DNA of 64,000 bases. Origin: Armatimonadota bacterium. Its GTDB lineage: Bacteria; Armatimonadota; HRBIN16. Below, piece by piece: positions 1,473 to 19,838 of this stretch (positions are counted from its first letter, which is position 1; the number at the start of each line of letters is the position of its first letter). The translations under genes were made by a program, and so were the position numbers. A model generated the notes under the pieces. That model searched no databases, had not been told where the DNA came from, and saw nothing but the letters and a program-made list of their open reading frames with translations. The stretch covers positions 472,763-536,762 of the forward strand of contig BPGU01000003.1 in assembly GCA_026003195.1 (NCBI GenBank), in the 5' to 3' direction.

Positions 1473-1863
1473 TTGGCTAATCCTTTGCTATGACTGCTAT
1501 GATATACTCATCGCTAATACTCTACAACACTTCACGCCGTTTGTCAAGGGGTTTTTCCCCTGTTTTCTGCGAGGTTTTCAAAAAATCGGCGCAAACCGAA
1601 GGCAAAACGCAAACTTTCTCCATACTGATATTCAGAGCCAATAAAAACGGGAGAATAGTCAATAAATGGGAAATTCATTCTCTGCTTCCGCTGCGTGCTC
1701 TCTGACAAAGGAAGAAGCATCCGTCTGCCCCCTGCAAATACCGGTATCGTCAGCCATCCCATAAACTAATATGTGCTATGATTAATGGAGTGAACACCCT
1801 CTGTGTGCTATGAGAGAAATTCCTGTTTGGGAAGAATTTTACTGGTCAACGCGCAAAAAGTTA

Positions 1864-1892
1864 TTGACAAACGTGGAAAGTTTTTGTATAAT
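1864..1892 (+). promoter_or_regulatory. consensus sigma70-type promoter (TTGACA-17 nt-TATAAT) upstream of the DUF1559 gene
   Basis: TTGACA at 1864-1869, a 17-nt spacer, TATAAT at 1887-1892. GGAGG RBS at 1935-1939 and ATG at 1950. Confidence 0.55.
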
Positions 1893-1949
1893 AAGGAAAC
1901 AAGTTATGCCCTTAACCGGGCGAAATCACCAGTGGAGGTGTTTCTGGTC

Positions 1950-2885
<936 letters not shown>

Positions 2886-3083: not shown

Positions 3084-3844
3084 TTACCGCAGACCGGTGA
3101 GGCGTTGATCTATGCCAGCCGTGGTTCCGGTGGTGGTCCGACTCTTGGCATGTAGATGACGTAAACCCGCCTCCACACGCGCCACAGGCAACCAACCTGC
3201 CTCCTCCAACTGCTTTAACAAACACGCCCGATGCCCACACAACCTGTCCCCCACCAACAAAGTGCCAGACGCCAAACCACCACGACCATATCGCTCCACC
3301 CACTCCCCCAACAGCCGACCCTCATCCGCATACGCCTCCCCCAACTGCAACCCCACCACCCAGACCCGACCACCCTTCCCAACGCCACCCTCTTCACATG
3401 CGACCGCTGCTGACGTGCCTGTGCCCCTCGCCAATACTGCGCGAAAAACGGCGAGGGCTACCCCACCCCCGTGCCATCCACAAACACACATGACGTCTCA
3501 CCGGTCGGCGTCTCGGCACCGATACCCTGCTGGACGAGCCAATGGAGCAGTTGTTGCAGGCGTTCGTCTGCAAGATGCCGCAAGCGGTAGGAGAGCGTGC
3601 CTAAGGCAGGCAGAGGGTGGTCGGGCAGAATCTCGGGGGCAAGCGCAAAGAGCAGGCGTCGGTAGGGGACGTGTTCGCGCACGCCGAGCAGCCAGAGGGT
3701 GAGGATGAGGGCTTCGGGATACTTGTGGGGTCGTCCGCGTCGTTTGGGAAGGGGGTTCTCCTGGCAGAAGCGCAGGACAAGGCTGTAAATGGTGCGTACC
3801 CGTATGGTGGCGAGAGTAGTTCGTCTGGAGTATGTGTGTTTCAT
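3084..3844 (-). mobile_element. degenerate IS5-family (IS427-group-like, two-ORF) insertion sequence remnant
   Basis: OrfA (3458-3844) carries a DUF4096-type HTH: KRRGRPHKYPEALILTLWLLGVREHVPYRRLL. A second ORF (3084-3491) lies in the -1 frame and overlaps OrfA, with weak DDE-region similarity (VGDRLCGHRACLLKQLEEAGWLPVA resembles ADKGYDS..LR..L...G..PVIP). Catalytic residues appear lost and no terminal inverted repeats were found. Confidence 0.5.
3458..3844 (-). pseudogene. IS5-family transposase OrfA (HTH, DUF4096) of the IS remnant
   Basis: 128-aa ORF with the RRGRP-HKYP...LILTLWLL signature of IS5/IS427-group OrfA proteins. Confidence 0.5.
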
Positions 3845-3900
3845 AGTATGTTTTATACCCGATGCTCACCGATTTTTCGAACACCCTCTGCTACCCCTGA

Positions 3901-4189
3901 CTCGCCGCGCGGACAGATTGTAAGCCAGTATGGATGGTTGGTTAACCACCTGAAGGGAGCACACTTCCTGTTCGCAGACGGACACGCCAAGTGGACGCGC
4001 GTGCAGGTGACTATTGCCAACAACCTGTGGAAGTGGCACTGCTTCCAGAGACCGGGCGAGAAAACCTTCGCGGGCGGCGATAATGTCCGCGACTTCGCCC
4101 CGGGATACGGTGCGCGTATCGGTGCAGTGTCCGATGCTGCATCCTGCCGCGCTGTCGCTTCGATCCGGGTCGCGGCAGAATACAAGTAA
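3901..4189 (+). pseudogene. C-terminal fragment (about 95 aa) of a DUF1559 / H-X9-DG paralogue, truncated next to the IS remnant
   Basis: Translation ...[50 protein letters not shown]... parallels the C-terminus of the intact gene at 1950-2885. It has no N-terminal pilin-like leader and no start codon. Confidence 0.75.
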
Positions 4190-7147: not shown

Positions 7148-7554
7148 ATGAAGTGCTCTCGGCATATCTGGTTGCTTTTTCTCCTCATTGCCCTGTCTGC
7201 CGCCGCCTTTGCCCAGCAGAGCCCCGACTGGGTGCAGGTGCGGCGGGAGGTTCCCACTCCGGGCTCACCCTGTCTGGATGGACACGTCCGTCAGTACGGG
7301 TGGCTGGTGAACCATCTAAGGGGGTACACTTCGTGTTCGCAGATGGGCACGTGAAGTGGACGCGCGTGCAGGTGACTATTGCCAACAACCTGTGGAAGTG
7401 GCACTGCTTCCAGAGACCGGGCGAGAAAACCTTCGCGGGTGGCGATAATGTCCGCGACTTCGCCCCGGGATACTGTGCGCGTATCGGTGCAGTGTCCGAT
7501 GCTGCATCCTGCCGCGCTGTCGCTTCGATCCTGGTCGCGGCAAAGTACAAGTGA
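7148..7554 (+). pseudogene. chimeric, frameshifted ORF: Sec-type signal peptide fused to a mosaic DUF1559 H-X9-DG C-terminal fragment
   Basis: AGGAGG RBS then ATG at 7148. MKCSRHIWLLFLLIALSAAAFAQQ resembles a signal peptide. From about 7236 the DNA is about 97% identical to 2597-2700 of the intact paralogue, with a 1-nt deletion near 7318 that shifts the frame. From about 7350 it is about 97% identical to fragment 3990-4190. The domain continues in the second frame (7153-7554). Confidence 0.6.
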
Positions 7555-7633: not shown

Positions 7634-8497
7634 TCACGCCTTCAACGCGCCGCTGGTGACCCCTTGCACGAAGGCGCGCATTCCTATCGCGAATAGCGCA
7701 ATCAGCGGCAGACTGCCTATCACATACCCCGCCAGTGTGGGACCATAGTCCAGGTTGAACTCGCCCGAGAAACGAGTCACGCCGACGGTGAAGGTCTGCA
7801 GGCTGCTATCGCTGATGGTGACGAGAGGCCAGATGTAGTCGTTGTAGATGCCCAGCGTGGTCATGATGGCGATGGTCGCCAGCGTGGGCAGGGAAAGAGG
7901 CAGGGCAAGATGGCGGTAAATCTGCACGTCGCCTGCGCCGTCCAGCCGCATCGCCTCGAACAGCTCGTCGGGCAAGCTGGTGAAGAAGGTACGACACAGT
8001 ACCACGCCCAGCACCTGCCCACCCGCCAGGTAGGGCAGTATCAACGCCCAGCGCGTGTTCAGCAGCCCCATGCTCTGCACCAGCGCGTAGGTGGGGATGA
8101 GCGTGAGGATACCGGGCACCACCAGCAGAGCCAGAATCAGCGCGAACACCCCATCGCGCCCGCGAAAGTGGAGCCGCGCCAGCGCGTAGCCCGATAGGGA
8201 ACTGAACAGCAACACACCCGGTACCACCACTGCAGTGACAATGAGCGTATTGAGCAGATAGCCCTTGAGTGCGATGGCGGCGTCGCGGTAGAAATCCCAG
8301 CGAGCAGGCTGGGGCAGTCCCCAGAAGCGGGTGAAGATATCGGCGTTGGTCTTCAACGAGAGCAACAGCATCATCGCGAAAGGCAACAGCGACAACGCCA
8401 GCAGCACCGCCAGCACCGCACCGGAGAGCACCTCCGAAAAGCGGAGGCGACGCCTTCGGGAGGGAGACAGTGAACGAACTGTGCGGAGTGGTTTCAT
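7634..8497 (-). CDS. carbohydrate ABC transporter permease (MalG/UgpE-like, binding-protein-dependent inner membrane component)
   Basis: Six predicted TM helices and the EAA-like loop ...EAMRLDGAGDVQIYRHLALP.... Start ATG at 8495-8497 overlaps the upstream permease stop (ATGA). Confidence 0.85.
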   Translation of the reverse strand: MKPLRTVRSLSPSRRRRLRFSEVLSGAVLAVLLALSLLPFAMMLLLSLKTNADIFTRFWGLPQPARWDFYRDAAIALKGYLLNTLIVTAVVVPGVLLFSSLSGYALARLHFRGRDGVFALILALLVVPGILTLIPTYALVQSMGLLNTRWALILPYLAGGQVLGVVLCRTFFTSLPDELFEAMRLDGAGDVQIYRHLALPLSLPTLATIAIMTTLGIYNDYIWPLVTISDSSLQTFTVGVTRFSGEFNLDYGPTLAGYVIGSLPLIALFAIGMRAFVQGVTSGALKA

Positions 8498-9381
8498 GTC
8501 AGCTTCTCCAGCCTCCTGCCCCAGAGCAGGTTCAACAGCGACAGTACAAATATCGCCACAAACAGCGTCAATCCGATGGCGGCAGCATACCCCAGGTGCC
8601 CGAAGCGAAACGCCTGAAAGTACATGTGCAATGCGGGCACATGCGTCGCCAGCCCCGGGCCGCCTCCCGTCAGAATCAGGATGCTTCCGAAATCCTGCAA
8701 CACACCGATGAGCGTGAGTATCACCAGCAGGCGCACCTGCGGTAGCAGAAGAGGCAGGTCCACATACCACACCCTCTTCCAGCCGCTCACCCCGTCCACC
8801 TGGCACGAGTCCCACACGTCACCCGAAATCTGGTTCAGTCCCGCGAGATAAATGAGCAGAGCCAGTCCCCCTGCCCATGGGAAGCCGATGCCGATAATCG
8901 CCCACAATGCGGTGCCGGACTCGCCCAGCCACGAGCGGGTCAACGCGCCCATACCCATCGCTTCCAGCACCTGATTGAGCAATCCCACACTGCCGTCGTA
9001 GATGAAGCTCCACAGCAGCATCGTTACCATACCGGGCACTACCATCGGCAGGATGAAGGCGGTACGCAACACGTACTGCCAGCGTGGCGAGCGCAGGCTC
9101 ATGAGCAGCTCCGCAACCAGCAAGGGCATGGTCAGCGTCTTCAGCACGCTGGCTATCAGAAGGATAAGCAGGTTGCGCAAGCTGAGGCGCAGGAACTCAT
9201 CGTGCCACATCGCCACGAAGTTCCCCAGACCAATCCACTGCGGGTCTTCGCCCGTTTCCCATCGCGTGAAGGCTCGCGACAAGCCCAGTATCGCCGGGTA
9301 GTAGTTGAACAGTGCCAAAAGCACCAGCGTCGGCGCGAGCATCAGCGCAATGACCACTATGGAGGTGCGTCGTCGGCTCAT
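8494..9381 (-). CDS. carbohydrate ABC transporter permease (MalF/UgpA-like)
   Basis: Multi-TM protein with ...DSCQVDGVSGWKRVWYVDLPLL... (EAA motif region). ATG at 9379-9381 overlaps the SBP stop. Confidence 0.85.
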   Translation of the reverse strand: MSRRRTSIVVIALMLAPTLVLLALFNYYPAILGLSRAFTRWETGEDPQWIGLGNFVAMWHDEFLRLSLRNLLILLIASVLKTLTMPLLVAELLMSLRSPRWQYVLRTAFILPMVVPGMVTMLLWSFIYDGSVGLLNQVLEAMGMGALTRSWLGESGTALWAIIGIGFPWAGGLALLIYLAGLNQISGDVWDSCQVDGVSGWKRVWYVDLPLLLPQVRLLVILTLIGVLQDFGSILILTGGGPGLATHVPALHMYFQAFRFGHLGYAAAIGLTLFVAIFVLSLLNLLWGRRLEKLT

Positions 9382-10805
9382 GAGGGTGTATCCTTCGTAC
9401 GGGGATTCATGTCCAGCTTCTGCATGGCGATCACGCGGGGCACCGCCTCCTCTATCAGTTGCTGGTAGCGTTTCAGAAACTCTTGCAGAGAGATGCGCCC
9501 CTCCATGTACCTCTGCGCCCACACCGTCCACTGCCATATTGATTCCTGCTCGTCCATCAGCCCACGAAAAGAGAGCTTTTCGAACCCTCTGCCCTCAAAG
9601 GGACGATAGTACCGCTGCAGTTCGGGGGGCATTTGCACGTCGGGGATAAGCATCGGACCGCTGAGGGTGCGACGGTGTCGCACGGCTTCATCCACCAGAA
9701 TCTGTGCGCCTTGTGGGCTGGTCAGGAACATCAGGAAATCTATCACGCGCCTCGTCTGCTGGGGGTTCTTCTTCACCACGCCCAGTACCAGCCCCGGTCC
9801 GCCCACCCCCCGAAACGGCGGTATCTTGAAGCGTGAGGTGATCAACGGTGGCACGGCGAAAATCCCCCACTCGAAACGCGCCCGAGGCGGCAGGTCCGCC
9901 ATGTCTTGCATCAGGTCGCCGATGAGCCACGAGCCTTCCAGCAGAATCGCCGCCCGCCCCGTCAGGAACAGGTTGTACGCGGTCACCGAGTTCGCGCCAT
10001 GAAAGCCACGTTGCCAATAGCGCGAAAAGTTGTGGATATGCGTATACAGCTCAGCGAAGCGTTCACCGTCAAAACGGATGAGTCGTCGACGCACCGCGTC
10101 TAGCAGCCGTTCGCCGTTGATGATGACCAGCGAGTCGTTATAAGGGTCGTTCAGGTTCAGGCGGAAGTGGGCGTTGCGCGTGGGGTCATAGTCCCAATCG
10201 CCCGGGCGCGACATCACCAGAGGAACCCACTGGCGCGTGTAGGCATCGGTAAAGAAGCGCACAATCCAGCCGACCGTGCCTGACCAGTAGGAATCGGCGT
10301 TGCCGGGCACAGCGAAGGGCAGGTAGCCTGCGGCGCGAATACGCTCCGCCAGAGCCAGCATCTGCTCCCAGGTGCGCGGAGGCTGTAAGCCCAGCTTGCG
10401 GAAAAGAGTCGCGTTGTAATAAAAACCAATCTCTACGAAGTCTACGGTAACGAACGAGACGCCGCCTGCGGTCTTAAACTTCTCGATGAACTGGGGGTTG
10501 AGCGTTTCTATCCACGCCTTGCCCGTATAGGGGTTGTGCTGGTTCAGGTAGGGGGCAAGGTTCACCAGCAAGCCTTTCTCATACATGCCCCAGGCATAGT
10601 TGGCGTTGAACAGGTCGGGCGCACGGTCTCCCGCTCCGGGAATCTGGGTGCGCAGCCACGTCTCATAGCCGTTCACGGGCATCACCTGCACCTTCACCTG
10701 CACGCCAGGGTGGGCACGTTCATACTCCCGCGCCAGCCGATAAAACCCCTCCCGGTAGTTGCCGCTCACGGTGGCGAGAAACAGGGTTGCCGCCTGTTGG
10801 GGCAT
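9378..10805 (-). CDS. ABC transporter extracellular solute-binding protein (family 1, sugar-binding)
   Basis: About 475 aa with typical SBP_bac_1 features and a Trp/Tyr-rich sugar-binding fold. Start assigned to the ATG at 10803-10805 with an upstream GGAGG. No obvious signal peptide at this start, so the true start may be an upstream alternative. Confidence 0.75.
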   Translation of the reverse strand: MPQQAATLFLATVSGNYREGFYRLAREYERAHPGVQVKVQVMPVNGYETWLRTQIPGAGDRAPDLFNANYAWGMYEKGLLVNLAPYLNQHNPYTGKAWIETLNPQFIEKFKTAGGVSFVTVDFVEIGFYYNATLFRKLGLQPPRTWEQMLALAERIRAAGYLPFAVPGNADSYWSGTVGWIVRFFTDAYTRQWVPLVMSRPGDWDYDPTRNAHFRLNLNDPYNDSLVIINGERLLDAVRRRLIRFDGERFAELYTHIHNFSRYWQRGFHGANSVTAYNLFLTGRAAILLEGSWLIGDLMQDMADLPPRARFEWGIFAVPPLITSRFKIPPFRGVGGPGLVLGVVKKNPQQTRRVIDFLMFLTSPQGAQILVDEAVRHRRTLSGPMLIPDVQMPPELQRYYRPFEGRGFEKLSFRGLMDEQESIWQWTVWAQRYMEGRISLQEFLKRYQQLIEEAVPRVIAMQKLDMNPRTKDTPS

Positions 10806-10959
10806 ATTTACGATTCCTCCTGCATGGTATAAGTTATCGGCTGGCAAGAAGGACTCCTGTGCGGGGAGGGTCTCTCGCGTGTTTCCCAGAGGAACGTCTC
10901 GCAGGATGGAGGAATCTGTAACAGAACGCCTTGCCTGAAGTAGAAAAACGGAGAGTGTC

Positions 10960-12195
10960 ATGAAGTCGGTGCACAGCATGGAATGGCATCCAGACCGTTC
11001 CTCCACGCAGAGGGAGACCCGCGCCCTGGGGGTAGTGTCTACGCCTCGTGACCTGGTAGAGTTCATGGTGCGCCTAGCTCAACCTTCGCGGAGGAGGTGT
11101 CGGGTGCTGGAGCCTGCCTGCGCCGAAGCGCCCTTCCTGGCTTCATTTGCCCAGCATTACGGTCGCGAACACGAGCTGGTCGGCGTAGAGATCGCCCCTG
11201 AACGCCTGCAACGCGCCCGTATGAGCTTACCTCAGGCTCACTTCATAGAGGCGGACTTTCTGCTGTGGGAACCTGTTGCACCGTTTGACATCGTTCTCGG
11301 CAACCCTCCGTACGGCATCATCGGCAACGCCTCGCACTATCCCCTTTATCCGTTGAAAGAGCGCAAAAGGCTCTATCGCCAGCGTTCAAGCACCTGGCAC
11401 GGCAAGTTCAACATCTACGGCGCGTTTATCGAACGGGCGGTGAACCTGCTAGCTGCAGGGGGCAAGCTGGTGTTTGTGGTTCCAGCCAGCTGGCTGGTGC
11501 TGGACGATTTTCATCGGCTGCGCCGATACCTGGCACAGTCGGGCCAATTGCACGTGTACTATCTCGGCAGGGTCTTTCCAAAGCGCAACGTGAGCGCGGT
11601 GGTGCTGATGCTGGAAAAGGGCGGGCAGGGGTTACTGCTCTACGATGGCATAGACGATGTGAAAGTGGCGCTGCCGAAGTATGGCGGTGAAATGATTCGG
11701 TTCGAAACGGACGAATGGCTGCGCTTTGAGCGGGAAGGCGTAGCGTTGGGAGACCTTTTTGATATCCGCTTCGCTGCACGTAGTACCGAAGTGCGCGCGC
11801 ATCCAGCAGTGGCTCTGGAGAAACGCGAGGGATATGTGCCCATTCTCACCGGGCGCAACCTGCACGCAGGCTGGATAGACTACGACACCTGTTACTCCGG
11901 ACTATGGATGCCCCACGAGCGGGTGGTGGAGCTGCGCACGTTCTATGGTTTTCCGCATCTGGTGGTAGCGCACACGAAAGGCGCGCGAGTGGTTTGTGCG
12001 TACGACGAGCGCTGTTACCCGTGGCGCGAGGAGTTTCATCTGGTGCCGAAGGCAGGAGGCTTAGACCTGCCCTCCATCAGGGAACATCTGAACAGTGAGC
12101 CTGTCCAGCGTTACGTGAGGCAACTCTATCGGGATTTCGTGCCCCACCTGACGGCTTCGATGCTGAGGCGGATACCTGTGCCCTGCGGATTCTGA
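10960..12195 (+). CDS. gamma-class N6-adenine DNA methyltransferase, close homologue of M.TaqI (TCGA-specific family); apparently solitary
   Basis: VLEPACAEAPFL (motif I), LGNPPYGIIG (motif IV, NPPY), and long collinear similarity to M.TaqI as I recall it: ...STWHGKFNIYGAFIERAVNLLAAGGKLVFVVPASWLVLDDF...YYLGRVFP...VSAVV...IRFETDE...LGDLFDIRFAARSTE...HPAV...VPILTGRNL..GW.DY....SGLWMP.ER..ELR.FY..PHLVVAHTKG.RVV.A.DER.YPWREEFHL.PK...LD......LNSE..Q..VR.LYRDFVPHLT..ML.R.PV. No endonuclease gene is adjacent. Confidence 0.85.
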   Translation: MKSVHSMEWHPDRSSTQRETRALGVVSTPRDLVEFMVRLAQPSRRRCRVLEPACAEAPFLASFAQHYGREHELVGVEIAPERLQRARMSLPQAHFIEADFLLWEPVAPFDIVLGNPPYGIIGNASHYPLYPLKERKRLYRQRSSTWHGKFNIYGAFIERAVNLLAAGGKLVFVVPASWLVLDDFHRLRRYLAQSGQLHVYYLGRVFPKRNVSAVVLMLEKGGQGLLLYDGIDDVKVALPKYGGEMIRFETDEWLRFEREGVALGDLFDIRFAARSTEVRAHPAVALEKREGYVPILTGRNLHAGWIDYDTCYSGLWMPHERVVELRTFYGFPHLVVAHTKGARVVCAYDERCYPWREEFHLVPKAGGLDLPSIREHLNSEPVQRYVRQLYRDFVPHLTASMLRRIPVPCGF

Positions 12196-12407
12196 GATGG
12201 TTCCGGTCCCTATATGGGTTTCTGCAATCGCTATGATTGCAAAAATCGCCTTATGCCCTTTTCAAATGGGAGAAGTTGGTGTACTATATTGACTGGGTGA
12301 AGCGAGTGAGACACCACAACGTGTAACATCAGGCAAGTCAGGCGTTACGCCTTGCAGATATAGTTGTGGTGTACGACCGACAACGCTACACAGAAAGGGT
12401 CACGACG

Positions 12408-15400
12408 ATGAAACGTTCCTATATCACCTTAGACGGCAACGAGGCAGCGGCATATACCGCTTACCGTACCAACGAAGTGATAGCCATCTACCCTATCACC
12501 CCCTCCTCCCCCATGGGCGAGTTCAGCGATGAATGGTCAGCCAAAGGCATTCCCAACATCTGGGGTACTGTTCCTCAGGTGGTGGAGATGCAGTCGGAGG
12601 GGGGAGCCGCAGGAGCCGTGCATGGCTCTCTGCAGGCAGGAGCCCTCACCACCACTTTCACCTCCAGTCAGGGGCTCCTGCTGATGATACCCAACATGTT
12701 CAAAATCGCCGGTGAGCTCACCAGCACGGTGTTCCATATCGCCGCGCGAACGGTAGCCACGCACGCCCTCTCCATCTTCGGCGACCACAGCGACGTGATG
12801 GCGTGCCGTTCCACAGGCTGGGCGATGCTGTTCTCCAATGACCCGCAGGAAGTGATGGACATGGCGCTCATTGCGCAGGCTGCGACGCTGGAGGCGCGGG
12901 TGCCCTTCCTGCATGTGTTTGACGGTTTTCGCACCTCCCATGAGGTGCGCAAGATCGAACTGCTCACGGAAGACGATATGCGCGCGATGATAGACAACGA
13001 GCTGGTGCGCGCCCACCGTGAACGAGCGTTGACTCCCGACCGCCCGATTTTGCGTGGCACCGCCCAGAACCCCGATACCTTCTTCCAGTCGCGCGAGCGC
13101 ATTAACCCCTTCTACATGGCGACGCCGGGCATCGTGGAGAAGACGATGCGCAAGTTCGCCAGCATCGTCGGCAGGGAGTATCATCTCTTCGAGTACATCG
13201 GTGCCCCCGACGCCGAGTACGTCATCATCCTGATGGGCTCGGGCTGTGGCACCGTGGAAGAGACGGTGCGCGTGCTGATGGAGAAAGGCGAAAAGGTAGG
13301 TTTCATCAAGGTGCGCCTGTATCGCCCGTTCTCGCGCGAACACTTGCTGAAGGCGCTGCCAGTGACGGTCAGAGCGATTGCTGTGCTGGACCGCACTAAG
13401 GAACCGGGCGCACTGGGAGAGCCGCTCTATCAGGACGTGGTCACCGCACTGGGCGAGGCGATGATGGAAGGAACCCTGCCGTTCGAGCGGGCACCTCGTG
13501 TGATTGGCGGACGCTACGGGCTGTCCTCCAAAGAGTTCACACCGGCAATGGTCAAGGCGGTGTACGACGAACTGGCAAAAGACAACCCCAAAAACCACTT
13601 CACCGTGGGCATCGTAGACGATGTAACCCATACCAGCCTGGAGGTAGACCCCCACTTCAACACCGAGTCGCCTGACGTGGTACGTGCGGTGTTCTGGGGT
13701 CTGGGCGCGGACGGCACCGTCGGCGCAAATAAAAACTCCATTAAAATCATCGGTGAGGAGACACCCAACTGGGCGCAGGGTTACTTTGTGTACGACTCTA
13801 AGAAGTCGGGAGCAGTGACCGTTTCTCACCTGCGCTTCGGTCCGCGCCCCATCCTAGGCACGTACCTGATCCAGCGGGCGAATTTCGTCGCGTGTCACCA
13901 GTTCCACTTCCTAGAGCGCTACAACGTGCTGGAGATGGCGGAGGAGGGCGCGACTTTCCTGCTCAACAGCCCGTATGGTCCTGAAGAGGTGTGGGACCAT
14001 CTGCCCCGCTCGGTGCAGCAGCAGATTATTGACAAAAAACTGAAGTTTTACGTCATCAACGCCTACGACGTCGCGAAGCACGTGGGGCTGGGCGTGCGCA
14101 TCAATACCATCATGCAGACCTGCTTCTTCGCCATCAGCGGCGTGCTTCCGCGCGAGGAAGCCATCGAAAAGATTAAGGAAGCCATTCGCAAGACCTACGG
14201 GCGACGCGGAGAAGCGGTGGTGCAGCAGAACTTCGCAGCCGTAGACGCCGCGCTGGACAACCTGTTCGAGGTCCAGGTGCCTGCTCAGGTGACCAGCACC
14301 TTCGACCGCCCGCCGGTGGTTCCCGACCACGCTCCAGAGTTCGTGAAGCGTCTGACGGCGCAGCTGATGGCAGGACGAGGAGACCTGCTGCCGGTGAGCG
14401 CATTTCCGGTGGACGGCACGTATCCCACCGGCACCGCCGCATGGGAGAAGCGCAACATCGCACTGGAAGTGCCTGTGTGGGAGCCGGACCTGTGCATCCA
14501 GTGCGGCAAGTGCGTGTACATCTGCCCGCACGCCACCATCCGCGCGAAGGTATACGACAAGGAACTGCTGGCCAACGCCCCGGCAACCTTCAAGACAACA
14601 CCCGCCAAATGGCGCGAGTTGCCCGACAAAATGTTCACCATTCAGGTGGCGGTGGAAGACTGTACGGGATGCCAGCTGTGCGTAGAGGTCTGTCCGGCAA
14701 AGGACAAGAGCGACAGTTCGCGCAAGGCACTGAATATGCGCCCGCAAATCCCCCTGCGGGAGCAGGAGCGGGTCAACTGGGAGTTCTTCCTGAGTCTGCC
14801 GGACGTGCCCAAGCACGACAGCCTGCGCTTCAATAATATCAAAAACGTGCAGCTGCTGCGACCACTGTTCGAGTTCTCCGGAGCATGTTCCGGCTGCGGT
14901 GAAACCCCGTACGTGCGACTGCTCACCCAGCTGTTCGGCGATCGGCTGTACATTGCGAACGCAACGGGTTGTTCCAGCATCTACGGAGGCAACCTGCCCA
15001 CCACGCCCTACACGACGGATAGCGAAGGCAGAGGTCCCACCTGGAGCAACTCGCTGTTTGAGGATAATGCCGAATTTGGTCTGGGGATGCGGCTCGCTAT
15101 CAATCGCCAGAATGCCTATGCTCGCCAGCTGCTTCAGGAGCTGCGTCCGCTCATCGCCGATGACGAACTGGTGGATGGTCTGCTGAACGCCGACCAGTCG
15201 AATGAGGCAGGTGTTCAGGCGCAACGCGAGCGCGTGGCGAAGCTGAAGCAGAAACTGGCAGGTAAGAGTGAGCCCAAAGTGCGCGACCTGCTCGCCGTCG
15301 CCGATATGCTGGTGCGTAAGAGCGTCTGGATTATTGGGGGCGACGGCTGGGCATACGACATCGATTACGGTGGGCTGGACCACGTTATCGCCAGCGGTGA

Positions 15401-15977
15401 GGATGTGAACATTCTTATCCTCGATACCGAAGTGTACTCCAACACGGGTGGGCAGGCTTCTAAAGCCACTCCAATGGGTGCGGTCGCTCGCTTTGCGGCA
15501 GGTGGCAAGCCCACCGCCAAGAAAGACCTGGGCATGATGGCGATGCACTATGGCAACGTCTACATCGCCCAGGTGGCAATGGGCGCGAACGAGCTGCAGA
15601 CGCTGAAGGCTTTCCTGGAGGCGGAAGCGTACCCCGGTCCCTCCATCATTATTGCCTACAGCCACTGCATCGCGCACGGCATCGACATGTCCAAAGGACA
15701 CATCCAGCAGAAGCTGGCGGTCGATTCCGGTTACTGGCCGCTCTATCGCTACAACCCCATGCTGGCGGAGCAGGGTGAGAACCCCTTCCAGCTCGATTCG
15801 AGCGGACCGACCGTCCCCTTCAAGGAGTACGCCTCCAAGGAAGGGCGTTACCGCATCCTGATGCAAGCCAATCCCGAAGCGGCGGAGCAGTTGCTGCAAC
15901 AAGCACAGCAGGTAATCGAGGAGCGGTGGCGCTACTACCGGATGCTGGCGGGCAAAAACCCCGACGGTGCAAAGTAG
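12408..15977 (+). CDS. nifJ: pyruvate:ferredoxin (flavodoxin) oxidoreductase, single-polypeptide PFOR (NifJ/YdbK type)
   Basis: Hallmark PFOR blocks: DGNEAAAYTAYRTNEVIAIYPITPSS, GGAAGAVHGSLQAGALTTTFTSSQGLLLMIPNM, two 4Fe-4S Cys clusters (CIQCGKCVYICPH, CTGCQLCVEVCP), the TPP motif GGDGWAYDIDYGGLDH and SNTGGQ. ATG at 12408 chosen over the GTG at 12366. Confidence 0.95.
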   Translation: MKRSYITLDGNEAAAYTAYRTNEVIAIYPITPSSPMGEFSDEWSAKGIPNIWGTVPQVVEMQSEGGAAGAVHGSLQAGALTTTFTSSQGLLLMIPNMFKIAGELTSTVFHIAARTVATHALSIFGDHSDVMACRSTGWAMLFSNDPQEVMDMALIAQAATLEARVPFLHVFDGFRTSHEVRKIELLTEDDMRAMIDNELVRAHRERALTPDRPILRGTAQNPDTFFQSRERINPFYMATPGIVEKTMRKFASIVGREYHLFEYIGAPDAEYVIILMGSGCGTVEETVRVLMEKGEKVGFIKVRLYRPFSREHLLKALPVTVRAIAVLDRTKEPGALGEPLYQDVVTALGEAMMEGTLPFERAPRVIGGRYGLSSKEFTPAMVKAVYDELAKDNPKNHFTVGIVDDVTHTSLEVDPHFNTESPDVVRAVFWGLGADGTVGANKNSIKIIGEETPNWAQGYFVYDSKKSGAVTVSHLRFGPRPILGTYLIQRANFVACHQFHFLERYNVLEMAEEGATFLLNSPYGPEEVWDHLPRSVQQQIIDKKLKFYVINAYDVAKHVGLGVRINTIMQTCFFAISGVLPREEAIEKIKEAIRKTYGRRGEAVVQQNFAAVDAALDNLFEVQVPAQVTSTFDRPPVVPDHAPEFVKRLTAQLMAGRGDLLPVSAFPVDGTYPTGTAAWEKRNIALEVPVWEPDLCIQCGKCVYICPHATIRAKVYDKELLANAPATFKTTPAKWRELPDKMFTIQVAVEDCTGCQLCVEVCPAKDKSDSSRKALNMRPQIPLREQERVNWEFFLSLPDVPKHDSLRFNNIKNVQLLRPLFEFSGACSGCGETPYVRLLTQLFGDRLYIANATGCSSIYGGNLPTTPYTTDSEGRGPTWSNSLFEDNAEFGLGMRLAINRQNAYARQLLQELRPLIADDELVDGLLNADQSNEAGVQAQRERVAKLKQKLAGKSEPKVRDLLAVADMLVRKSVWIIGGDGWAYDIDYGGLDHVIASGEDVNILILDTEVYSNTGGQASKATPMGAVARFAAGGKPTAKKDLGMMAMHYGNVYIAQVAMGANELQTLKAFLEAEAYPGPSIIIAYSHCIAHGIDMSKGHIQQKLAVDSGYWPLYRYNPMLAEQGENPFQLDSSGPTVPFKEYASKEGRYRILMQANPEAAEQLLQQAQQVIEERWRYYRMLAGKNPDGAK

Positions 15978-16052
15978 TCGGGCTGGGGGTTGGCACGCGC
16001 CAACCCCCCTTCCCATCTGTCAAGGAATCGCAACTCAGGAGGACTGCAGACA

Positions 16053-17051
16053 ATGGATTTGAGTACCACATACATGGGTTTGAAATTGCGCAACCCGCTG
16101 GTTGCCTCTTCCTCGCCCCTGTCGCACAAGGTGGAAGGTATCTGCCAGCTGGAGGAGGCGGGTATTGGCGCAGTGGTGATGTATTCGCTGTTCGAGGAGC
16201 AAATCACCCTCGAGAGCCAGCAACTGGATTACTTCCTCACGCATGGCACCGAGAGTTATGCTGAAGCGCTCAGCTACTTTCCGGACCTGGGCGAGTATAA
16301 CGTGGGACCGGATGAATATCTCCGTCTCATCCGCAACGCCAAGGAGAAAGTGGGCATTCCCCTCATTGGCAGTCTGAATGGCGTCTCTGCGGGGGGGTGG
16401 GTGCACTACGCGAAGCTGATAGAGCAAGCCGGTGCGGATGCGCTGGAGCTGAATGTGTACTATCTGCCCACCGATCCCGACCTGACCGGTAGCGCCGTGG
16501 AAGAGATGACGGTCGAAGTGGTGCAGGCAGTGCGCAAGGAGGTCACCATCCCGCTGGCGGTAAAGATAAGCCCCTTCTTCAGCTCCATTCCCCACATGGC
16601 GAAGAGATTGGCGGAGGCGGGCGCGAACGCTCTGGTGTTGTTCAACCGTTTCTACCAGCCCGACATCGATATCGAGAATCTGGAGGTCAAGCCTCATCTG
16701 GTGCTCAGCGACTCGGATGAGCTGCGCTTGCCCTTGCGCTGGACAGCTATCCTGCATGGGCGCGTGCCTCTGGACCTCGCCATCACCACAGGAGTCCATA
16801 CCCACCGTGACGTGTTAAAGGGGCTGATGGCGGGTGCGAAGGTGACCATGATGGCTTCGGAGCTGCTGCAGAACGGTTTGGGGCGCATCGGGCAGATACT
16901 GCAGGAGATGCAGGCATGGATGGAAGAGTACGAATATTCCTCCGTGCAGCAGATGATTGGCAGCGTCAGCCAGAAGAACGTGGCGGAACCTGCCGCGTTT
17001 GAGCGTGCCAACTACATGAAGGTGCTCGATTCGTATCCTCGTCTCATATAA
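16053..17051 (+). CDS. dihydroorotate dehydrogenase-like flavoprotein (class 1 DHODH / dihydropyrimidine-dehydrogenase PreA-like TIM barrel)
   Basis: [23 protein letters not shown]...[13 protein letters not shown]...ELNVYY...PLAVKISP...ALVLFNRFY is the DHO_dh family pattern. AGGAGG RBS 10 nt upstream of ATG 16053. Confidence 0.7.
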
Positions 17052-17053
17052 GC

Positions 17054-17087
17054 ATTCGCGGGAGCACACCACTGTGCCCCCGCGAAT
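17054..17087. terminator. bidirectional hairpin terminator between the convergent DHOD-like gene and flgM
   Basis: ATTCGCGGG ... CCCGCGAAT outer stem with a nested GCACA/TGTGC inner stem. Confidence 0.35.
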
Positions 17088-17141
17088 CAGGCTCCTGATC
17101 CGAAAATGGTTCGCCCGTGTCTCTGTAGTCCGGGAGGCAGA

Positions 17142-17459
17142 CTACCGCACGTTGTCGGCGATGGTGCGCCGAACGATAAGGTCCGCGATCTCCGCAGAAG
17201 AGACGTGATACTCGCCCGCTTCAATCTTGCGGCGGAGCTCCTGTACCATCTCCTCGCGTACCTCCGGGATTTCGTCCAGAAGGAACTTAATTTGCCGGAT
17301 TTCCTGGGCGCGAGGCGATAGCTCCACCGAAGCGGCGGGGGAAACGTCCCTTTGAGCGTCGACCGGCGGAGGGGCAGGCAACACTGCCGCACCCACCCTG
17401 CCCGTGCGGCTGAACTGCAACACCCGGCTGTACTCGTCCAGCGATATTTTCATGACCAT
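17142..17459 (-). CDS. flgM: anti-sigma-28 factor FlgM
   Basis: 105 aa. The C-terminus EEMVQELRRKIEAGEYHVSSAEIADLIVRRTIADN matches the conserved FlgM helix region. GGAGG RBS. Confidence 0.75.
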   Translation of the reverse strand: MVMKISLDEYSRVLQFSRTGRVGAAVLPAPPPVDAQRDVSPAASVELSPRAQEIRQIKFLLDEIPEVREEMVQELRRKIEAGEYHVSSAEIADLIVRRTIADNVR

Positions 17460-17625
17460 CCTGCCTCCTTCGACGACGCCCCTGCGAAGATGCGTCGTGT
17501 CGTTCGGCAGAACTTCGGCAGCCGGGCGATCATATCCCGACCCTCGTCGGGACTTAGACCCCTATGGCTTTGCGTCCCCACATTTCTGTGGGTTTGCCTT
17601 TATCGGATCCGCCTGTCAATCTCTA

Positions 17626-17653
17626 TTATTGGCAAATCTGCGCAGGAACTTTA
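17626..17653 (-). promoter_or_regulatory. sigma28 (FliA)-like promoter upstream of flgM
   Basis: On the minus strand: TAAAGTTC-N12-GCCAATAA, versus the consensus TAAAGTTT-N11-GCCGATAA. About 165 nt upstream of the flgM ATG. Confidence 0.35.
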
Positions 17654-17726
17654 GGGTTGAAACGGTTTCTTTTCAAAAATTCCCACCTGCAGTATAGCAA
17701 AAAAGGCGCAGAGGTTGCAAGCTGCT

Positions 17727-19838
17727 TTACTCCCCCTTCTCATCGCTTCCCCGAACCTCGACGAGCCGATGCCCCAGAGCGGGTACGCGAACCCACAGGG
17801 TGACCTCCCCGCCTCGCTGGTGGGACGGCACGTCCGGGAAGTGAGCCCGGAAGTTGTCTGGCAGACCGATGTCCCCCAGGCGAAAGCGAATCTCGCGCTC
17901 TACCTCCGTCGTCGCCAGGTTGAAGACGTTCAGCACCGCTACCGTCTGTCCCTCCGCGAAGGCTTCACCGGTGAGGGTGTGTGCGTGCACGGTCTCATCG
18001 ATGCCGTAAAACCTGCCCTGCGTGTAGAAGCGTTTGAGGGAGAGGTAGGTCTGCATCGCCTGTTTGTGGGCATACCAGACCCTTGGGTCGGGGTGTCTCC
18101 CACCAATCCCCAGATGCCGACAGGTACTGGCATACCACCAGAAAACCAGAGCGTGTTCGTTGTCCTTGCGCAGGTCGATGTGCAGGTAAACCGGAATGGA
18201 GTACGCCAGATTCAGGTAGTAGAGGCTGAGCGCGCGCCCACTGCGCAGGTCATCCATCGGGTCCCACATGTACTCGTAACCCCAGAGCTCATCAAACGAG
18301 TCGGGCAGGGCGTGTAAGAAGTAGGTAGGCGCATACCGTATCGTCGTACCGCCGACTATCGGGTCGTGCAGTTCAATCCACACCTGAGGGAACTCTCGCT
18401 TGACCGACTGTATCAGCTGCAACAGCGCCATACAATGCTCATGGCGGGTGAGAGGGAGGGAATGACCATGCGACTCGTCATAACATTCACCGGTAAACAT
18501 GGTTCCGTCATACATCAGGAACGAGGCGCCATCCCGACAGAGCCGCAGCAATCTCTCCGACTTTGTCTGCAGGTAAGCAGGAGACGCACTGCATAAGGAC
18601 GGGAGCGTTTGCCCGTCTTTTGCTTTTCGCCGTGCCTGCTCGGGATAACCGTTCACATCACACCAGGCTGCCAGCGGATTGTGCAGCGCCAGCCGTAAAC
18701 CGTAACGCTCCTCCAGCAGCCTGACGAACTCCCGCTGTTTGCCCAGCCTGTCTTCCGCCCATATCGAGGAGGCAAAGAGGGTGTCCCAGCCCGGGTCCAG
18801 GTAGAGCGCTTCGCACCCCAGATACACTGCCTTGTGCGCCTCTGCTTCCATATCCGCCAGTTGATAAAACTGCTGGCGACGCTCGAGGGTATCTGCTCCC
18901 CACCAGAGCGGGTTGTCGTACAGCTCATTCCAGTGCACAGGCGGGTCATAGCCTTCTGGTATCCGGTGTCCCAGCGATTCCGTCCATTTGCGAAACGCGC
19001 TGAAAGCGCCTTTCCATCCACCCTCACAGGGCTCGAACCGGGTTCTTCCAAAGTGCACACTCTGCCCCGGTTGCAGGCAGGCAGCGGGTTCAGGGTCGCC
19101 CAGCTTCCACAAGCCTGCTCCCCCAAAGCGCAGGTACGTCTTGTCTGCACGCTGGAAAGCCTCCAGCAAAGACCATTCCATCGCGTCAGGGTTGTACTTG
19201 GCGATGAGAAGCGTGTGCTCTCCATCCGAATCCGTCCAGCCCCACGCCTCCGAACCAAAAGCGGAGGTGGTGTAGCGCTGTAGAGGGATTTCAAACGACC
19301 AGAAGTAAAAGCCACCCTGACGCGATAGAAGCTCTTCCGGGGCGAGGTCCCCAAACTCGCCGGTTACCGTCTCCCTGCGGTACGGGATGGGGTGAAAACA
19401 ACACCCCTTCAGGTCCGCACGGAAATCGTTGCCGTCCCGCAGAGTTCTCGTGAAACCGAAGACGGCGTCCCGCAGGTCTATCGGTTCTGCACCCCCATTG
19501 GTCAGGGTGAGTTGCTCCTCCAGAGCGTCGAGAGTGGCTCGGAAGGTATGCTGCACCACCAGATTGCCTCTACGGGCGAGGAGAGTCACTCGAAGCGAGC
19601 CATCGTCTCCCTGCTCCACGTGAGGCTCGCCCTGCAACTGCGGTAAAGGGGCGTCCGGCTTGCCGTAGCAGTAGTCGGCGTCGGCGTACACGCGCCCGGT
19701 TCGCCAGTGCACCAGATGATAAGGGTTCAGTCCATCGCGCGTGCGAATACGCAGCTGCAGGGCTGAGTTTTCCAGTACGAGTTCACCCGTTCGTCGGTTC
19801 CACCGCACGAAGGGAGAAGGGGGCTCCTTTTTCGCCAT
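17727..19838 (-). CDS. putative glycoside hydrolase, GH36/alpha-galactosidase-like (N-terminal beta-sandwich plus TIM barrel)
   Basis: 703 aa with no signal peptide. The YLDPGWD motif recalls the (I/L)DDGW of GH27/GH36, in a Trp/Tyr/His-rich barrel. The family assignment is tentative. Confidence 0.4.
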   Translation of the reverse strand: MAKKEPPSPFVRWNRRTGELVLENSALQLRIRTRDGLNPYHLVHWRTGRVYADADYCYGKPDAPLPQLQGEPHVEQGDDGSLRVTLLARRGNLVVQHTFRATLDALEEQLTLTNGGAEPIDLRDAVFGFTRTLRDGNDFRADLKGCCFHPIPYRRETVTGEFGDLAPEELLSRQGGFYFWSFEIPLQRYTTSAFGSEAWGWTDSDGEHTLLIAKYNPDAMEWSLLEAFQRADKTYLRFGGAGLWKLGDPEPAACLQPGQSVHFGRTRFEPCEGGWKGAFSAFRKWTESLGHRIPEGYDPPVHWNELYDNPLWWGADTLERRQQFYQLADMEAEAHKAVYLGCEALYLDPGWDTLFASSIWAEDRLGKQREFVRLLEERYGLRLALHNPLAAWCDVNGYPEQARRKAKDGQTLPSLCSASPAYLQTKSERLLRLCRDGASFLMYDGTMFTGECYDESHGHSLPLTRHEHCMALLQLIQSVKREFPQVWIELHDPIVGGTTIRYAPTYFLHALPDSFDELWGYEYMWDPMDDLRSGRALSLYYLNLAYSIPVYLHIDLRKDNEHALVFWWYASTCRHLGIGGRHPDPRVWYAHKQAMQTYLSLKRFYTQGRFYGIDETVHAHTLTGEAFAEGQTVAVLNVFNLATTEVEREIRFRLGDIGLPDNFRAHFPDVPSHQRGGEVTLWVRVPALGHRLVEVRGSDEKGE

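What the first reader, a model, noticed from the sequence alone, without database searches (positions are those of the whole stretch)
10960..12195. Solitary, host-GC M.TaqI-like N6-adenine methyltransferase with no neighbouring endonuclease
The protein is collinear with M.TaqI over essentially its whole length, including the NPPY catalytic loop and the C-terminal target-recognition region (from my recollection of the M.TaqI sequence), so TCGA specificity is plausible. It sits between a sugar ABC operon and PFOR, at host-typical GC, with no REase partner. It may be an orphan MTase with an epigenetic or anti-restriction role, or the remnant of an R-M system that lost its R gene.
Basis: partly seen in the sequence, partly recalled or inferred. 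Interest (0 to 1): 0.55.

Follow-up and report, generated by a model that had tools for sequence, protein, structure and literature searches.

The report
Solitary TaqI-family DNA adenine methyltransferase
This gene encodes an intact relative of the well-studied DNA-marking enzyme M.TaqI that has lost its DNA-cutting partner but has been kept by selection at the same chromosomal spot in several related hot-spring bacteria; this is a clear but ordinary example of an 'orphan' methyltransferase.

Summary
ORF 10960-12195 (+, 411 aa) matches M.TaqI crystal chains end to end (E=2.8e-141, 59.7% identity; recognition domain 65%). All cofactor and catalytic motifs are present (NPPY at aa 115-118). It lies between a sugar ABC operon and PFOR, with host-like GC and codon usage.

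No TaqI-type endonuclease, intact or degraded, exists in the 64 kb window. In many more distant relatives an RE_TaqI gene sits directly downstream of the methyltransferase. In some relatives that gene is frameshifted or truncated. In one syntenic pair (L021 vs L025) it is cleanly deleted.

The R-less gene occupies the same SBP|M|PFOR slot in at least three diverged lineages. Its dS (~1.0-1.3) is similar to or slightly above that of its flanks, and dN/dS is 0.12-0.22. It is therefore a selected gene, not a decaying remnant.

TCGA is almost absent from most R-carrying loci (pooled O/E 0.35) but near baseline here (0.81). GGCC (0.07) and GATC (0.34) are strongly avoided in the same DNA.

Best reading: a long-standing orphan methyltransferase, probably TCGA-specific and making m6A, descended from a TaqI-type R-M system. 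It plausibly protects against TaqI-type nucleases circulating in this lineage and community. It is a new member of a known kind, of modest interest.

The parts
10960..12195 (+). Coding sequence of the solitary M.TaqI-family (gamma-class) N6-adenine DNA methyltransferase, 411 aa
   Evidence: ORF listing. M.TaqI match E=2.8e-141. Pfam TaqI_C, Eco57I and N6_Mtase. PADLOC MTase_II 5.9e-162.
11014..11697 (+). N-terminal catalytic / AdoMet-binding domain (about aa 19-246); the boundary is approximate, taken from the M.TaqI domain split at residue 243/244
   Evidence: 55.7% identity to M.TaqI residues 14-243. Eco57I and N6_Mtase Pfam hits cover aa 17-222.
11110..11136 (+). Motif I (cofactor-binding loop), E51-P-A-C-A-E-A-P-F59, equivalent to M.TaqI E45-F53
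   Evidence: Residue mapping. The H50E and G51A differences are also found in endonuclease-paired relatives.
11302..11313 (+). Motif IV catalytic loop NPPY (aa 115-118, equal to M.TaqI N105-Y108)
   Evidence: invariant across all 25 family members aligned.
11575..11586 (+). Motif VIII segment F206-P-K-R209 (M.TaqI F196-P-Q-K199)
   Evidence: F196 is conserved. K199R is the norm in the family, including all endonuclease-paired MAG copies.
11698..12180 (+). C-terminal target-recognition domain (about aa 247-407), TaqI_C
   Evidence: Pfam TaqI_C over aa 294-407 at 7e-18. 65.2% identity to M.TaqI residues 244-405.
10803..10959 (.). Divergent intergenic region between the solute-binding-protein gene and the methyltransferase; GGAG ribosome-binding site at 10950-10953; contains no TCGA site
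   Evidence: Sequence. TCGA positions. No sigma-70-like consensus was found here.
12196..12407 (+). Spacer to PFOR. An indel-rich stretch follows the methyltransferase stop codon, then a conserved promoter-like block (12261-12290) and a conserved hairpin that belong to PFOR. This is where an R gene sits in paired relatives; no remnant is present.
   Evidence: Alignment of five slot-A loci. Promoter scan. No endonuclease similarity by tblastn or six-frame HMM.
7634..10802 (-). Flanking sugar ABC transporter operon (two permeases and a solute-binding protein); defines the left side of the conserved 'slot A'
   Evidence: Pfam BPD_transp_1 twice, SBP_bac_1. Synteny in L016, L020, L023, L024, L027, L028.
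12408..15977 (+). Flanking pyruvate:ferredoxin oxidoreductase gene; defines the right side of 'slot A'
   Evidence: Pfam POR_N, POR, EKR, PFOR_II, TPP_enzyme_C. Synteny. Start codon placed at 12408 from the alignment.

Best explanation
The gene encodes a functional, solitary (orphan) Type II gamma-class N6-adenine DNA methyltransferase of the M.TaqI family. It most probably methylates the adenine of 5'-TCGA-3' on both strands, using AdoMet and the base-flipping NPPY/Phe mechanism known from M.TaqI.

It descends from a TaqI-type M+R restriction-modification module. The endonuclease gene was lost, or was never co-acquired, before the divergence of at least three related lineages of uncultured thermophilic Armatimonadota-like bacteria. 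Since then the methyltransferase has been inherited vertically at one chromosomal slot (SBP | M | PFOR) under purifying selection.

The most likely selective benefit (inferred, not shown) is standing protection of TCGA sites against TaqI-type endonucleases. These circulate as mobile R-M modules in the same lineage and community. Protection would give immunity to establishment or post-segregational killing by incoming TaqI-type R-M systems, and would protect DNA exchanged with R-bearing neighbours. A regulatory (epigenetic) role is possible but has no specific support.

Shown here: family membership, intact motifs, absence of R in 64 kb, conserved locus, purifying selection, and no TCGA avoidance. 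Inferred: TCGA specificity, enzymatic activity, absence of R in the rest of the genome, and the selective reason.
For: 1. Identity. The match to M.TaqI is full length (E=2.8e-141, 59.7% identity; recognition domain 65.2%). The protein keeps 135 of the 143 alignment columns that are invariant among nine endonuclease-paired family members, M.TaqI included.

2. R-M ancestry and R loss.
- An RE_TaqI gene lies directly downstream of M in many relatives.
- It is frameshifted or stop-interrupted in L010, L017 and L019, and reduced to a remnant of about 46-51 aa in L037, L039 and L050.
- It is cleanly absent in L025 compared with the syntenic L021.

3. No R in the window. tblastn and a six-frame HMM search found nothing, and no other nuclease domain lies near the gene.

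4. Conserved orphan locus. The same SBP|M|PFOR arrangement without R occurs in L020 (94% aa), L027 (77%), and L023/L024/L028 (74%). L016 (72%) shares the upstream flank, but its contig ends inside M.

5. Selection.
- dN/dS is 0.22 against L020 and 0.12-0.16 among slot-A alleles.
- The methyltransferase's dS (1.0-1.3) is similar to or slightly above that of the flanks (0.43-0.98).
- In a neutral simulation the ORF stays open in 0.1% of runs at d=0.19 and in 0 of 20000 runs at d>=0.5.

6. Long residence. GC3 and codon usage are host-like, unlike the two low-GC islands in the same window.

7. Genome signature.
- TCGA O/E is 0.81 in the window and 0.62-0.88 in the orphan loci. It is 0.00-0.31 in most loci with intact R (pooled 0.35 vs 0.79; Mann-Whitney p=0.001).
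- GGCC (0.07) and GATC (0.34) are strongly avoided in the same DNA, so the avoidance signal is detectable in this lineage.

8. TaqI-type R-M modules circulate nearby. L041 is 87% nt-identical to the window in the permease gene and carries M+R+R' on the other side of the same ABC operon.

9. Precedent. Thermus phage phiLo, whose host carries the TCGA system TthHB8I, encodes a solitary 55%-identical homolog, and that locus is TCGA-depleted.
Against: - No methylation or enzyme activity data exist; specificity rests on homology.
- Only 64 kb of the genome was available, so an unlinked TaqI-type or non-homologous TCGA endonuclease elsewhere cannot be excluded.
- The TCGA-avoidance signature is not fully diagnostic. 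L008 and L021 have an intact R gene but O/E of 0.74-0.79, and the short L041 contig shows no depletion either (1.33).
- dN/dS is 2-4 times higher than in the housekeeping neighbours, so constraint is relaxed.
- The protein NJ tree did not recover slot-A copies as one clade. It has no support values, and the dS values do favour slot-A monophyly.
- The proposed benefit, protection against circulating TaqI-type nucleases, is circumstantial.
- Eight positions that are invariant in paired enzymes differ here, including P273T next to the conserved R271-S272.
Confidence: 0.8

Rival explanations
1. It is the M half of a complete but split R-M system: a cognate TCGA endonuclease, TaqI-like or unrelated, is encoded elsewhere in the genome outside the window.
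For: - Only about 2% of a roughly 3 Mb genome was seen.
- L041 shows that a close relative carries a TaqI-type cassette at another position near the same operon.
- L021 and L008 show that an intact R gene can coexist with near-baseline TCGA frequency.
- Several window ORFs have no Pfam match, and endonucleases are often unrecognisable.
Against: - In every R-bearing relative recovered here (more than 20 loci), R is immediately downstream of M, never unlinked.
- TCGA is not avoided in the window, although GGCC and GATC are.
- The R-less arrangement is conserved in three diverged lineages on contigs of up to about 63-64 kb.
Confidence: 0.1
2. It is a non-functional relic of a decayed R-M system that simply has not yet accumulated disabling mutations.
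For: - dN/dS is higher than in the neighbouring genes (0.16-0.22 vs 0.02-0.12).
- Relatives show R-M decay in progress, including one locus (L017) where M is also broken.
Against: - The ORF is intact in at least three lineages separated by dS of about 1.
- The neutral simulation gives 0.1% or less chance of an open frame even at d=0.19.
- dN/dS is well below 1.
- All catalytic and cofactor motifs and 135 of 143 family-invariant columns are kept.
- Codon usage is fully host-like.
Confidence: 0.04
3. It is an active orphan methyltransferase whose specificity has drifted away from TCGA, or whose main role is epigenetic gene regulation rather than protection.
For: - Once R is lost, specificity is no longer held by lethal selection.
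- Eight family-invariant positions differ, one of them in the recognition domain next to R271-S272 (P273T).
- Conserved orphan methylases such as Dam and CcrM are regulators (general knowledge; review PMC10073500).
Against: - The recognition domain is the better conserved half (65% vs 56%).
- The gene is bracketed in the family by M.TaqI (experimentally TCGA) and by relatives whose genomes are purged of TCGA.
- TCGA sites are under-represented, not enriched, in intergenic DNA (8 observed vs 18.6 expected). None lies in the gene's own upstream region.
Confidence: 0.1

Closest known systems
M.TaqI (Thermus aquaticus; PDB 2ibs, 1aqj, 1g38), the methyltransferase of the TaqI Type IIP R-M system, TCGA, m6A
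   Same: Full-length collinearity (E=2.8e-141; 59.7% identity). Same two-domain architecture (gamma-class catalytic domain plus TaqI_C recognition domain). Identical NPPY, F196, E45, E71, D89/F90, R271 and P393 equivalents.
   Different: M.TaqI is encoded next to R.TaqI; here there is no R gene. K199 is Arg, which is the norm in the MAG family. The host is a different phylum, Armatimonadota-like by its best relatives.
M.TthHB8I-type M+R modules in Armatimonadota, Fervidibacter and Anaerolineae MAGs (e.g. L021 = GCA_026003175.1, L006, L009, L012)
   Same: 60-77% identical methyltransferases with the same domains. They are clearly the same gene family, and L021 belongs to the same subclade.
   Different: Those carry an RE_TaqI gene that overlaps or closely follows the 3' end of M. 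Most of their genomes are purged of TCGA (O/E 0-0.3), unlike the window at 0.81.
Solitary TaqI-family methyltransferase of Thermus phage phiLo (phiLo_36, MH673673)
   Same: Solitary, with no adjacent R gene. 55.5% identical over 95% of the length. It is an example of this family being used without its endonuclease, presumably to evade TCGA restriction by the host.
   Different: It is phage-borne and in a TCGA-depleted locus (2 observed vs 22 expected). The window gene is chromosomal, vertically inherited and in DNA that is not TCGA-depleted.
Conserved orphan Type II methyltransferases derived from R-M systems (e.g. H. pylori M.HpyI/M.Hpy99III with facultative R loss; Dam; CcrM)
   Same: The methyltransferase is maintained by selection while the endonuclease is absent or decays (PMC10423294; PMC2588503 title and abstract). 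The orphan sits at a fixed locus across related lineages.
   Different: Different enzyme classes and motifs. Dam and CcrM have demonstrated regulatory roles, and nothing of that kind is shown here. Conservation here is documented only in a narrow set of uncultured lineages.

Membership tests
M.TaqI family of gamma-class N6-adenine DNA methyltransferases | Full-length sequence homology and collinearity with M.TaqI | tested here: met
   phmmer E=2.8e-141, query 19-407 vs chain 14-405. 59.7% identity. PADLOC MTase_II PDLC03293 5.9e-162 over model positions 8-403 of 427.
M.TaqI family of gamma-class N6-adenine DNA methyltransferases | Gamma-class motif order: AdoMet-binding motif I N-terminal to the catalytic motif IV (N/D)PP(Y/F), with the motif VIII aromatic residue | tested here: met
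   Motif I E51-F59, E77 (=E71), D99/F100 (=D89/F90), NPPY 115-118, F206 (=F196).
M.TaqI family of gamma-class N6-adenine DNA methyltransferases | C-terminal TaqI-like target-recognition domain (Pfam PF12950) | tested here: met
   TaqI_C 65.4 bits against a cut-off of 26.5, aa 294-407. 65.2% identity to M.TaqI residues 244-405.
M.TaqI family of gamma-class N6-adenine DNA methyltransferases | Recognition of 5'-TCGA-3' and N6 methylation of its adenine | not testable with these tools
   Inference only, from recognition-domain conservation, 135 of 143 invariant columns kept, and TCGA purging in the genomes of R-paired relatives. A methylome or an in vitro assay is needed.
TaqI-type Type IIP restriction-modification system (M + R) | A cognate RE_TaqI (PF09573) endonuclease gene adjacent to the methyltransferase | tested here: not met
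   No hit in the window by tblastn with 13 endonucleases (E<=1) or by a six-frame hmmsearch run with --max. The 212-nt downstream spacer holds only PFOR promoter and leader elements.
TaqI-type Type IIP restriction-modification system (M + R) | Genomic avoidance of the target palindrome, as seen in most R-bearing relatives | tested here: not met
   TCGA O/E is 0.81 in the window against 0.00-0.31 in most loci with intact R. Caveat: L008 and L021 are exceptions.
Orphan (solitary) DNA methyltransferase maintained by selection | No cognate endonuclease in the genome | tested here: inconclusive
   Absent from the 64 kb window and from all syntenic contigs. The rest of the genome was not available.
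Orphan (solitary) DNA methyltransferase maintained by selection | Conservation of the R-less gene at an orthologous locus across diverged lineages | tested here: met
   The SBP|M|PFOR slot without R occurs in L020, L027, L023, L024 and L028; L016 shares the upstream flank but its contig ends inside M. The methyltransferase's dS (1.0-1.3) is similar to or slightly above that of the flanks.
Orphan (solitary) DNA methyltransferase maintained by selection | Purifying selection on the coding sequence | tested here: met
   dN/dS is 0.12-0.22. In the neutral simulation the ORF stays open in 0.1% of runs or fewer.

The most novel reading that the evidence does not exclude
The orphan TCGA methylase is a lineage-fixed 'genomic vaccine'. 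In hot-spring communities TaqI-type R-M modules hop between Armatimonadota, Fervidibacter, Anaerolineae and Thermus. A permanently expressed solitary M.TaqI homolog would be selected because it neutralises the addictive or killing behaviour of these modules and lets the cell exchange DNA freely with R-bearing neighbours.

The family would then offer a natural time series: intact R with TCGA purged, then R decaying with TCGA still purged, then an old orphan with TCGA recovered. That series could be used to measure how fast restriction-site avoidance is gained and lost. Alternatively, the retained methylase may have acquired a regulatory role.
Probability: 0.3. Interest if true: 0.5.

Novelty: new member of a known kind. 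Interest (0 to 1): 0.3.

Why it matters
The gene itself is an ordinary, well-understood enzyme type. Solitary methyltransferases derived from R-M systems are common, and the M.TaqI family is among the best characterised.

The modest value lies in the comparative picture. The same family is caught in every stage from an intact M+R module to a long-fixed orphan, and the stages correlate with TCGA purging of the host DNA. This gives a clean natural example of asymmetric R/M conservation in uncultured thermophiles.

It also yields a practical prediction: genomic DNA of this lineage should resist TaqI and carry m6A at TCGA. That is useful for methylome-based binning of hot-spring metagenomes.

Tried and rejected
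1. **Degraded R gene.** I searched the window and the orphan loci for a degraded R gene, including the 212-nt M-PFOR spacer, using tblastn (E<=1-10) with 13 endonucleases and a six-frame HMM. Nothing was found.

2. **K199R.** I suspected K199R (motif VIII region) might signal altered function. I rejected this because every R-paired MAG homolog also has Arg there.

3. **DNA-contact residues.** Full-text searches for the list of M.TaqI DNA-contact residues gave nothing usable; the 2001 structure paper is not in the library. I used family-invariant columns instead.

4. **Epigenetic-regulator signature.** I looked for TCGA enrichment or clustering in intergenic and promoter DNA. The result was the opposite: 8 observed vs 18.6 expected, and none upstream of the gene itself.

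5. **Promoter and terminator scan around the gene.** Only one promoter-like site was found, and it belongs to PFOR. No terminator was found. This is uninformative about how the methylase is transcribed.

6. **Mobility.** No homolog was found in PLSDB plasmids or IMG/VR viral contigs. One was found in GenBank phages, phiLo. There are no tRNA genes in the window.

7. **NJ protein tree for counting R losses.** Its topology around the window's clade conflicts with the dS values and carries no support values, so I use it only qualitatively.

8. **Recovering more of the source genome.** A look-up of the exact protein returned only a 2.6 kb contig.

9. **Structure prediction.** Not run, because a 60%-identical crystal structure exists.
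Full report
**1. The observation.**
The ORF is at exactly 10960-12195 on the + strand and encodes 411 aa. A GGAG ribosome-binding site lies 6 nt upstream of the ATG.

Family matches:
- Pfam gives TaqI_C (7e-18), Eco57I (4.6e-17) and N6_Mtase (1.2e-9), all above their gathering thresholds.
- PADLOC's Type II methyltransferase model PDLC03293 matches over its whole length at 5.9e-162.
- NCBIfam has no specific model, only weak partial hits to MAD2 and PglX methylase cores.
- Against PDB sequences the best hits are the M.TaqI chains (2ibs_A, E=2.8e-141), aligned from query residue 19 to 407 and chain residue 14 to 405.

A pairwise alignment gives 59.7% identity over 382 positions. The C-terminal target-recognition domain is 65.2% identical and the catalytic domain 55.7%.

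The cofactor and catalytic residues known from M.TaqI are all present: E45, E71, D89/F90, N105-P-P-Y108, F146 and F196 (their roles are from my knowledge of the M.TaqI structure papers). The equivalent of K199 is Arg. That is also true of every endonuclease-paired homolog I aligned, so it is a family trait and not a defect.

The protein keeps 135 of the 143 alignment columns that are invariant among nine endonuclease-paired members including M.TaqI. The eight differences are A56S, I119L, H120Y, P156A, F180Y, P273T, P285K and A319V.

**2. Surroundings.**
- Upstream, on the opposite strand, are a solute-binding protein and two ABC permeases.
- Downstream, on the same strand, are PFOR, a DHO-dehydrogenase-family gene and FlgM.
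- The gene's GC (0.592), GC3 (0.687) and codon usage lie inside the range of the host genes. Two low-GC islands in the same window stand out clearly (GC3 0.48-0.56).

**3. Is there an endonuclease?**
I obtained the TaqI-type endonuclease sequence from relatives.
- One homolog (P0120) carried a precomputed RE_TaqI domain.
- Its C-terminal fragment located an ORF immediately downstream of the methyltransferase in 12 of the 19 genome loci.
- Full-length endonucleases of 260-282 aa were extracted, and Pfam confirmed RE_TaqI (precomputed).

With these 13 proteins (tblastn, E<=1) and with an HMM run over all six frames with filters off, the window gave no hit at all.

The 212-nt spacer where R would sit contains an indel-rich stretch followed by a promoter-like block and a hairpin. 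Both are conserved among five syntenic loci and belong to PFOR.

I scanned all the long ORFs of the window against Pfam. The only other nuclease is a SacI-family enzyme at 38159-39241. It has its own D12-class methylase next to it, 26 kb away in a low-GC island.

**4. What the relatives show.**
The family is abundant in uncultured thermophilic Armatimonadota, Fervidibacter and Anaerolineae (466 proteins at E<=1e-10; loci). Three states occur.

(a) Intact M+R, with R overlapping or closely following M. Examples are L004, L006-L009, L012, L014, L015, L018, L021/L022, L030-L033, L035, L038, L040-L043, L046 and L048.

(b) A decaying R gene:
- a frameshift in L010 and L019;
- an internal stop in L017, where M is also broken;
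- only a 46-51-aa N-terminal remnant in L037, L039 and L050.

(c) No R at all:
- the window, L001-L003, L005, L011, L013, L020, L023-L028, L036 and L051;
- L049 also lacks R, but holds only a partial M at a contig end and is discussed in section 6.

One pair catches the loss directly. L021 and L025 share the slot GFO_IDH_MocA | M | ... | DUF3866 | NUDIX, with flanks 92-96% identical. L021 has R plus two small ORFs, and L025 has none of them.

**5. The orphan is old and selected.**
The window's arrangement (SBP | M | PFOR, no R) recurs in several loci:
- L020 (M 94% identical);
- L027 (77%);
- L023/L024/L028 (74%);
- L016, 'bacterium HR16' (72%), as far as its contig reaches.

Between the window and L023 the methyltransferase's dS is 1.07. 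That is similar to or slightly above the flanks (0.43-0.98), and dN/dS is 0.16 against 0.05-0.12 for the neighbours. Against L020, dN/dS is 0.22.

All slot-A alleles differ from each other by dS 1.0-1.3. They differ from the slot-B alleles (L021/L025) by 1.8 to more than 3. This supports common descent of the slot-A orphans, even though the unsupported NJ protein tree did not group them.

I simulated substitution-only neutral drift. It leaves the ORF open in 0.1% of runs at d=0.19 and in none of 20000 runs at d>=0.5.

The gene is therefore maintained by purifying selection, although less tightly than housekeeping genes.

**6. Genome signature.**
I computed expected counts with a second-order Markov model. 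TCGA in the window is 217 observed against 267.5 expected (O/E 0.81). That is about the baseline of other 4-bp palindromes in the window (0.79-1.06).

GGCC (0.07, z=-20.6) and GATC (0.34, z=-17) are heavily purged. The same is true in the lineage's relatives.

Across loci:
- Most with intact R have TCGA O/E of 0.00-0.31.
- Those with decaying R have 0.05-0.39 (L019, at 0.79, is an exception).
- The orphans have 0.62-0.88.
- Pooled values are 0.35 with R and 0.79 without (Mann-Whitney p=0.001).

The exceptions are L008 and L021, which have intact R with O/E 0.74-0.79. L049 has no R, with 0 sites observed against 11.9 expected. The short L041 contig (intact R) also shows no depletion (1.33). The signature is therefore supportive but not decisive.

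It argues that this lineage has not been under TCGA restriction for a long time. That is indirect evidence against an unlinked TaqI-type endonuclease elsewhere in the genome.

**7. Mechanism and likely role.**
By homology (inference), the enzyme binds AdoMet in the N-terminal Rossmann-like domain. It flips the target adenine of TCGA into the NPPY/Phe pocket and transfers the methyl group to N6. The C-terminal domain reads the sequence.

Why is it kept? Two observations give the protection hypothesis some footing.
- TaqI-type modules are mobile within this very lineage. L041 is 87% nt-identical to the window in the permease gene. It has M+R plus a diverged second RE_TaqI paralog on the other side of the same ABC operon.
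- A Thermus phage whose host has the TCGA system TthHB8I carries a solitary 55%-identical homolog, in a TCGA-depleted locus.

A solitary methylase that neutralises incoming R-M modules is an established concept (general knowledge). Asymmetric conservation of M over R is documented, for example in H. pylori (PMC2588503; PMC10423294).

A regulatory role is not supported. TCGA is under-represented in intergenic DNA (8 observed vs 18.6 expected), and none lies in the gene's own upstream region. The sample is small, however.

**8. Comparison, novelty and verdict.**
The protein meets every sequence-testable criterion of the M.TaqI family. The locus fails the defining criterion of a TaqI-type R-M system, an adjacent R gene. 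It meets the testable criteria of a selected orphan methylase.

Not testable here: the methylated motif, enzyme activity, and the absence of R from the rest of the genome.

This is a new member of a known kind. Interest is modest at 0.3. The enzyme and the orphan phenomenon are well known, but the family offers a tidy natural series of R-M decay linked to restriction-site avoidance.

Noticed in passing
window 38159-40171 (- strand): A complete second Type II R-M pair: a SacI-family endonuclease (PF09566, 8e-9; 360 aa) directly downstream of a D12/Dam-class N6-adenine methyltransferase (PF02086, 2.8e-21; PADLOC MTase_II 2.3e-57; 307 aa). GC is 0.50-0.54 and GC3 0.48-0.56 against a host GC3 of about 0.72, so it was probably acquired recently. 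GAGCTC is not avoided in the window (16 observed vs 17.3 expected), so its specificity is unknown.
   Followed up: partly
window 42468-49923 (+ strand): A low-GC island (GC about 0.49) with two overlapping giant ORFs (1165 and 1329 aa). A RecQ/DpdF-like helicase core is split between the C-terminus of the first ORF (RecQ model positions 14-182) and the N-terminus of the second (positions 226-320). A UvrD/PcrA/GajB-like helicase follows in the second ORF. The first roughly 970 aa have no Pfam match. It looks like one gene of about 2490 aa that is frameshifted or split, possibly a defence-type double helicase. Two small ORFs with no family match follow at 49973-50996.
   Followed up: partly
whole window, and loci L001, L003, L016, L020, L021, L023, L025: Extreme avoidance of GGCC (21 observed vs 299 expected; O/E 0.07; z=-20.6) and strong avoidance of GATC (105 vs 307; O/E 0.34; z=-17). 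CTAG (0.39) and AATT (0.52) are also low. The GGCC and GATC purging is shared by related Armatimonadota loci. This implies long-term HaeIII-like and MboI/DpnII-like restriction pressure in the lineage. The responsible systems are not in the window, unless the D12 methylase pair targets GATC.
   Followed up: partly
window 12230-12407 (aligned with L020, L023, L027, L028): A conserved block upstream of PFOR contains a promoter-like element (TTGCAAAAAT...CCCTTTTCAAAT...GTTGGTGTACTATAT) and a conserved hairpin, CAGGCAAGTCAGGCGTTACGCCTT (stem AGGCG/CGCCT). This suggests a conserved PFOR promoter and 5' leader. The stretch immediately after the methyltransferase stop varies by 0 to about 110 nt among lineages.
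   Followed up: no
L041 1-3258 (Ga0197142_1022468): A close relative of the window's organism (87% nt identity over the permease gene; L041 2767-3258 equals window 7636-8127). It carries M (28-1104), RE_TaqI (1091-1903; 1.3e-63) and a second, diverged RE_TaqI paralog (1794-2654; 3.6e-19; about 27% identical to R). These abut the 3' end of the same ABC operon, on the opposite side from the window's orphan. A tandem R paralog in a TaqI-type system is unusual.
   Followed up: partly
L010, L017, L019, L037, L039, L050, L049: Several relatives hold TaqI-type endonuclease genes in decay (frameshift, stop codon, or only a 46-51-aa N-terminal remnant). Their DNA is mostly still strongly TCGA-depleted (O/E 0.05-0.39; L019 is at 0.79). 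L049 lacks R, with 0 TCGA sites against 11.9 expected. These look like recent R losses, though sequencing or assembly errors in MAGs cannot be excluded.
   Followed up: partly
window vs L020, genes 7634-19838: Synonymous divergence between the window and the 94%-allele contig L020 varies about 45-fold between adjacent genes (dS 0.026 for the 703-aa ORF at 17727-19838, 0.16-0.20 for the ABC genes and the methylase, 0.50 for PFOR, 1.21 for the DHO-dh-family gene). This suggests a recombination mosaic in the region.
   Followed up: no
window 1803-2885, 3617-4189, 7153-7554: Paralogous DUF1559 / prepilin-type N-terminal-methylation proteins (PF07596, PF07963). The 133-aa ORF at 7153-7554 looks like a fragment of one. 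Their hits overlap on L005.
   Followed up: no
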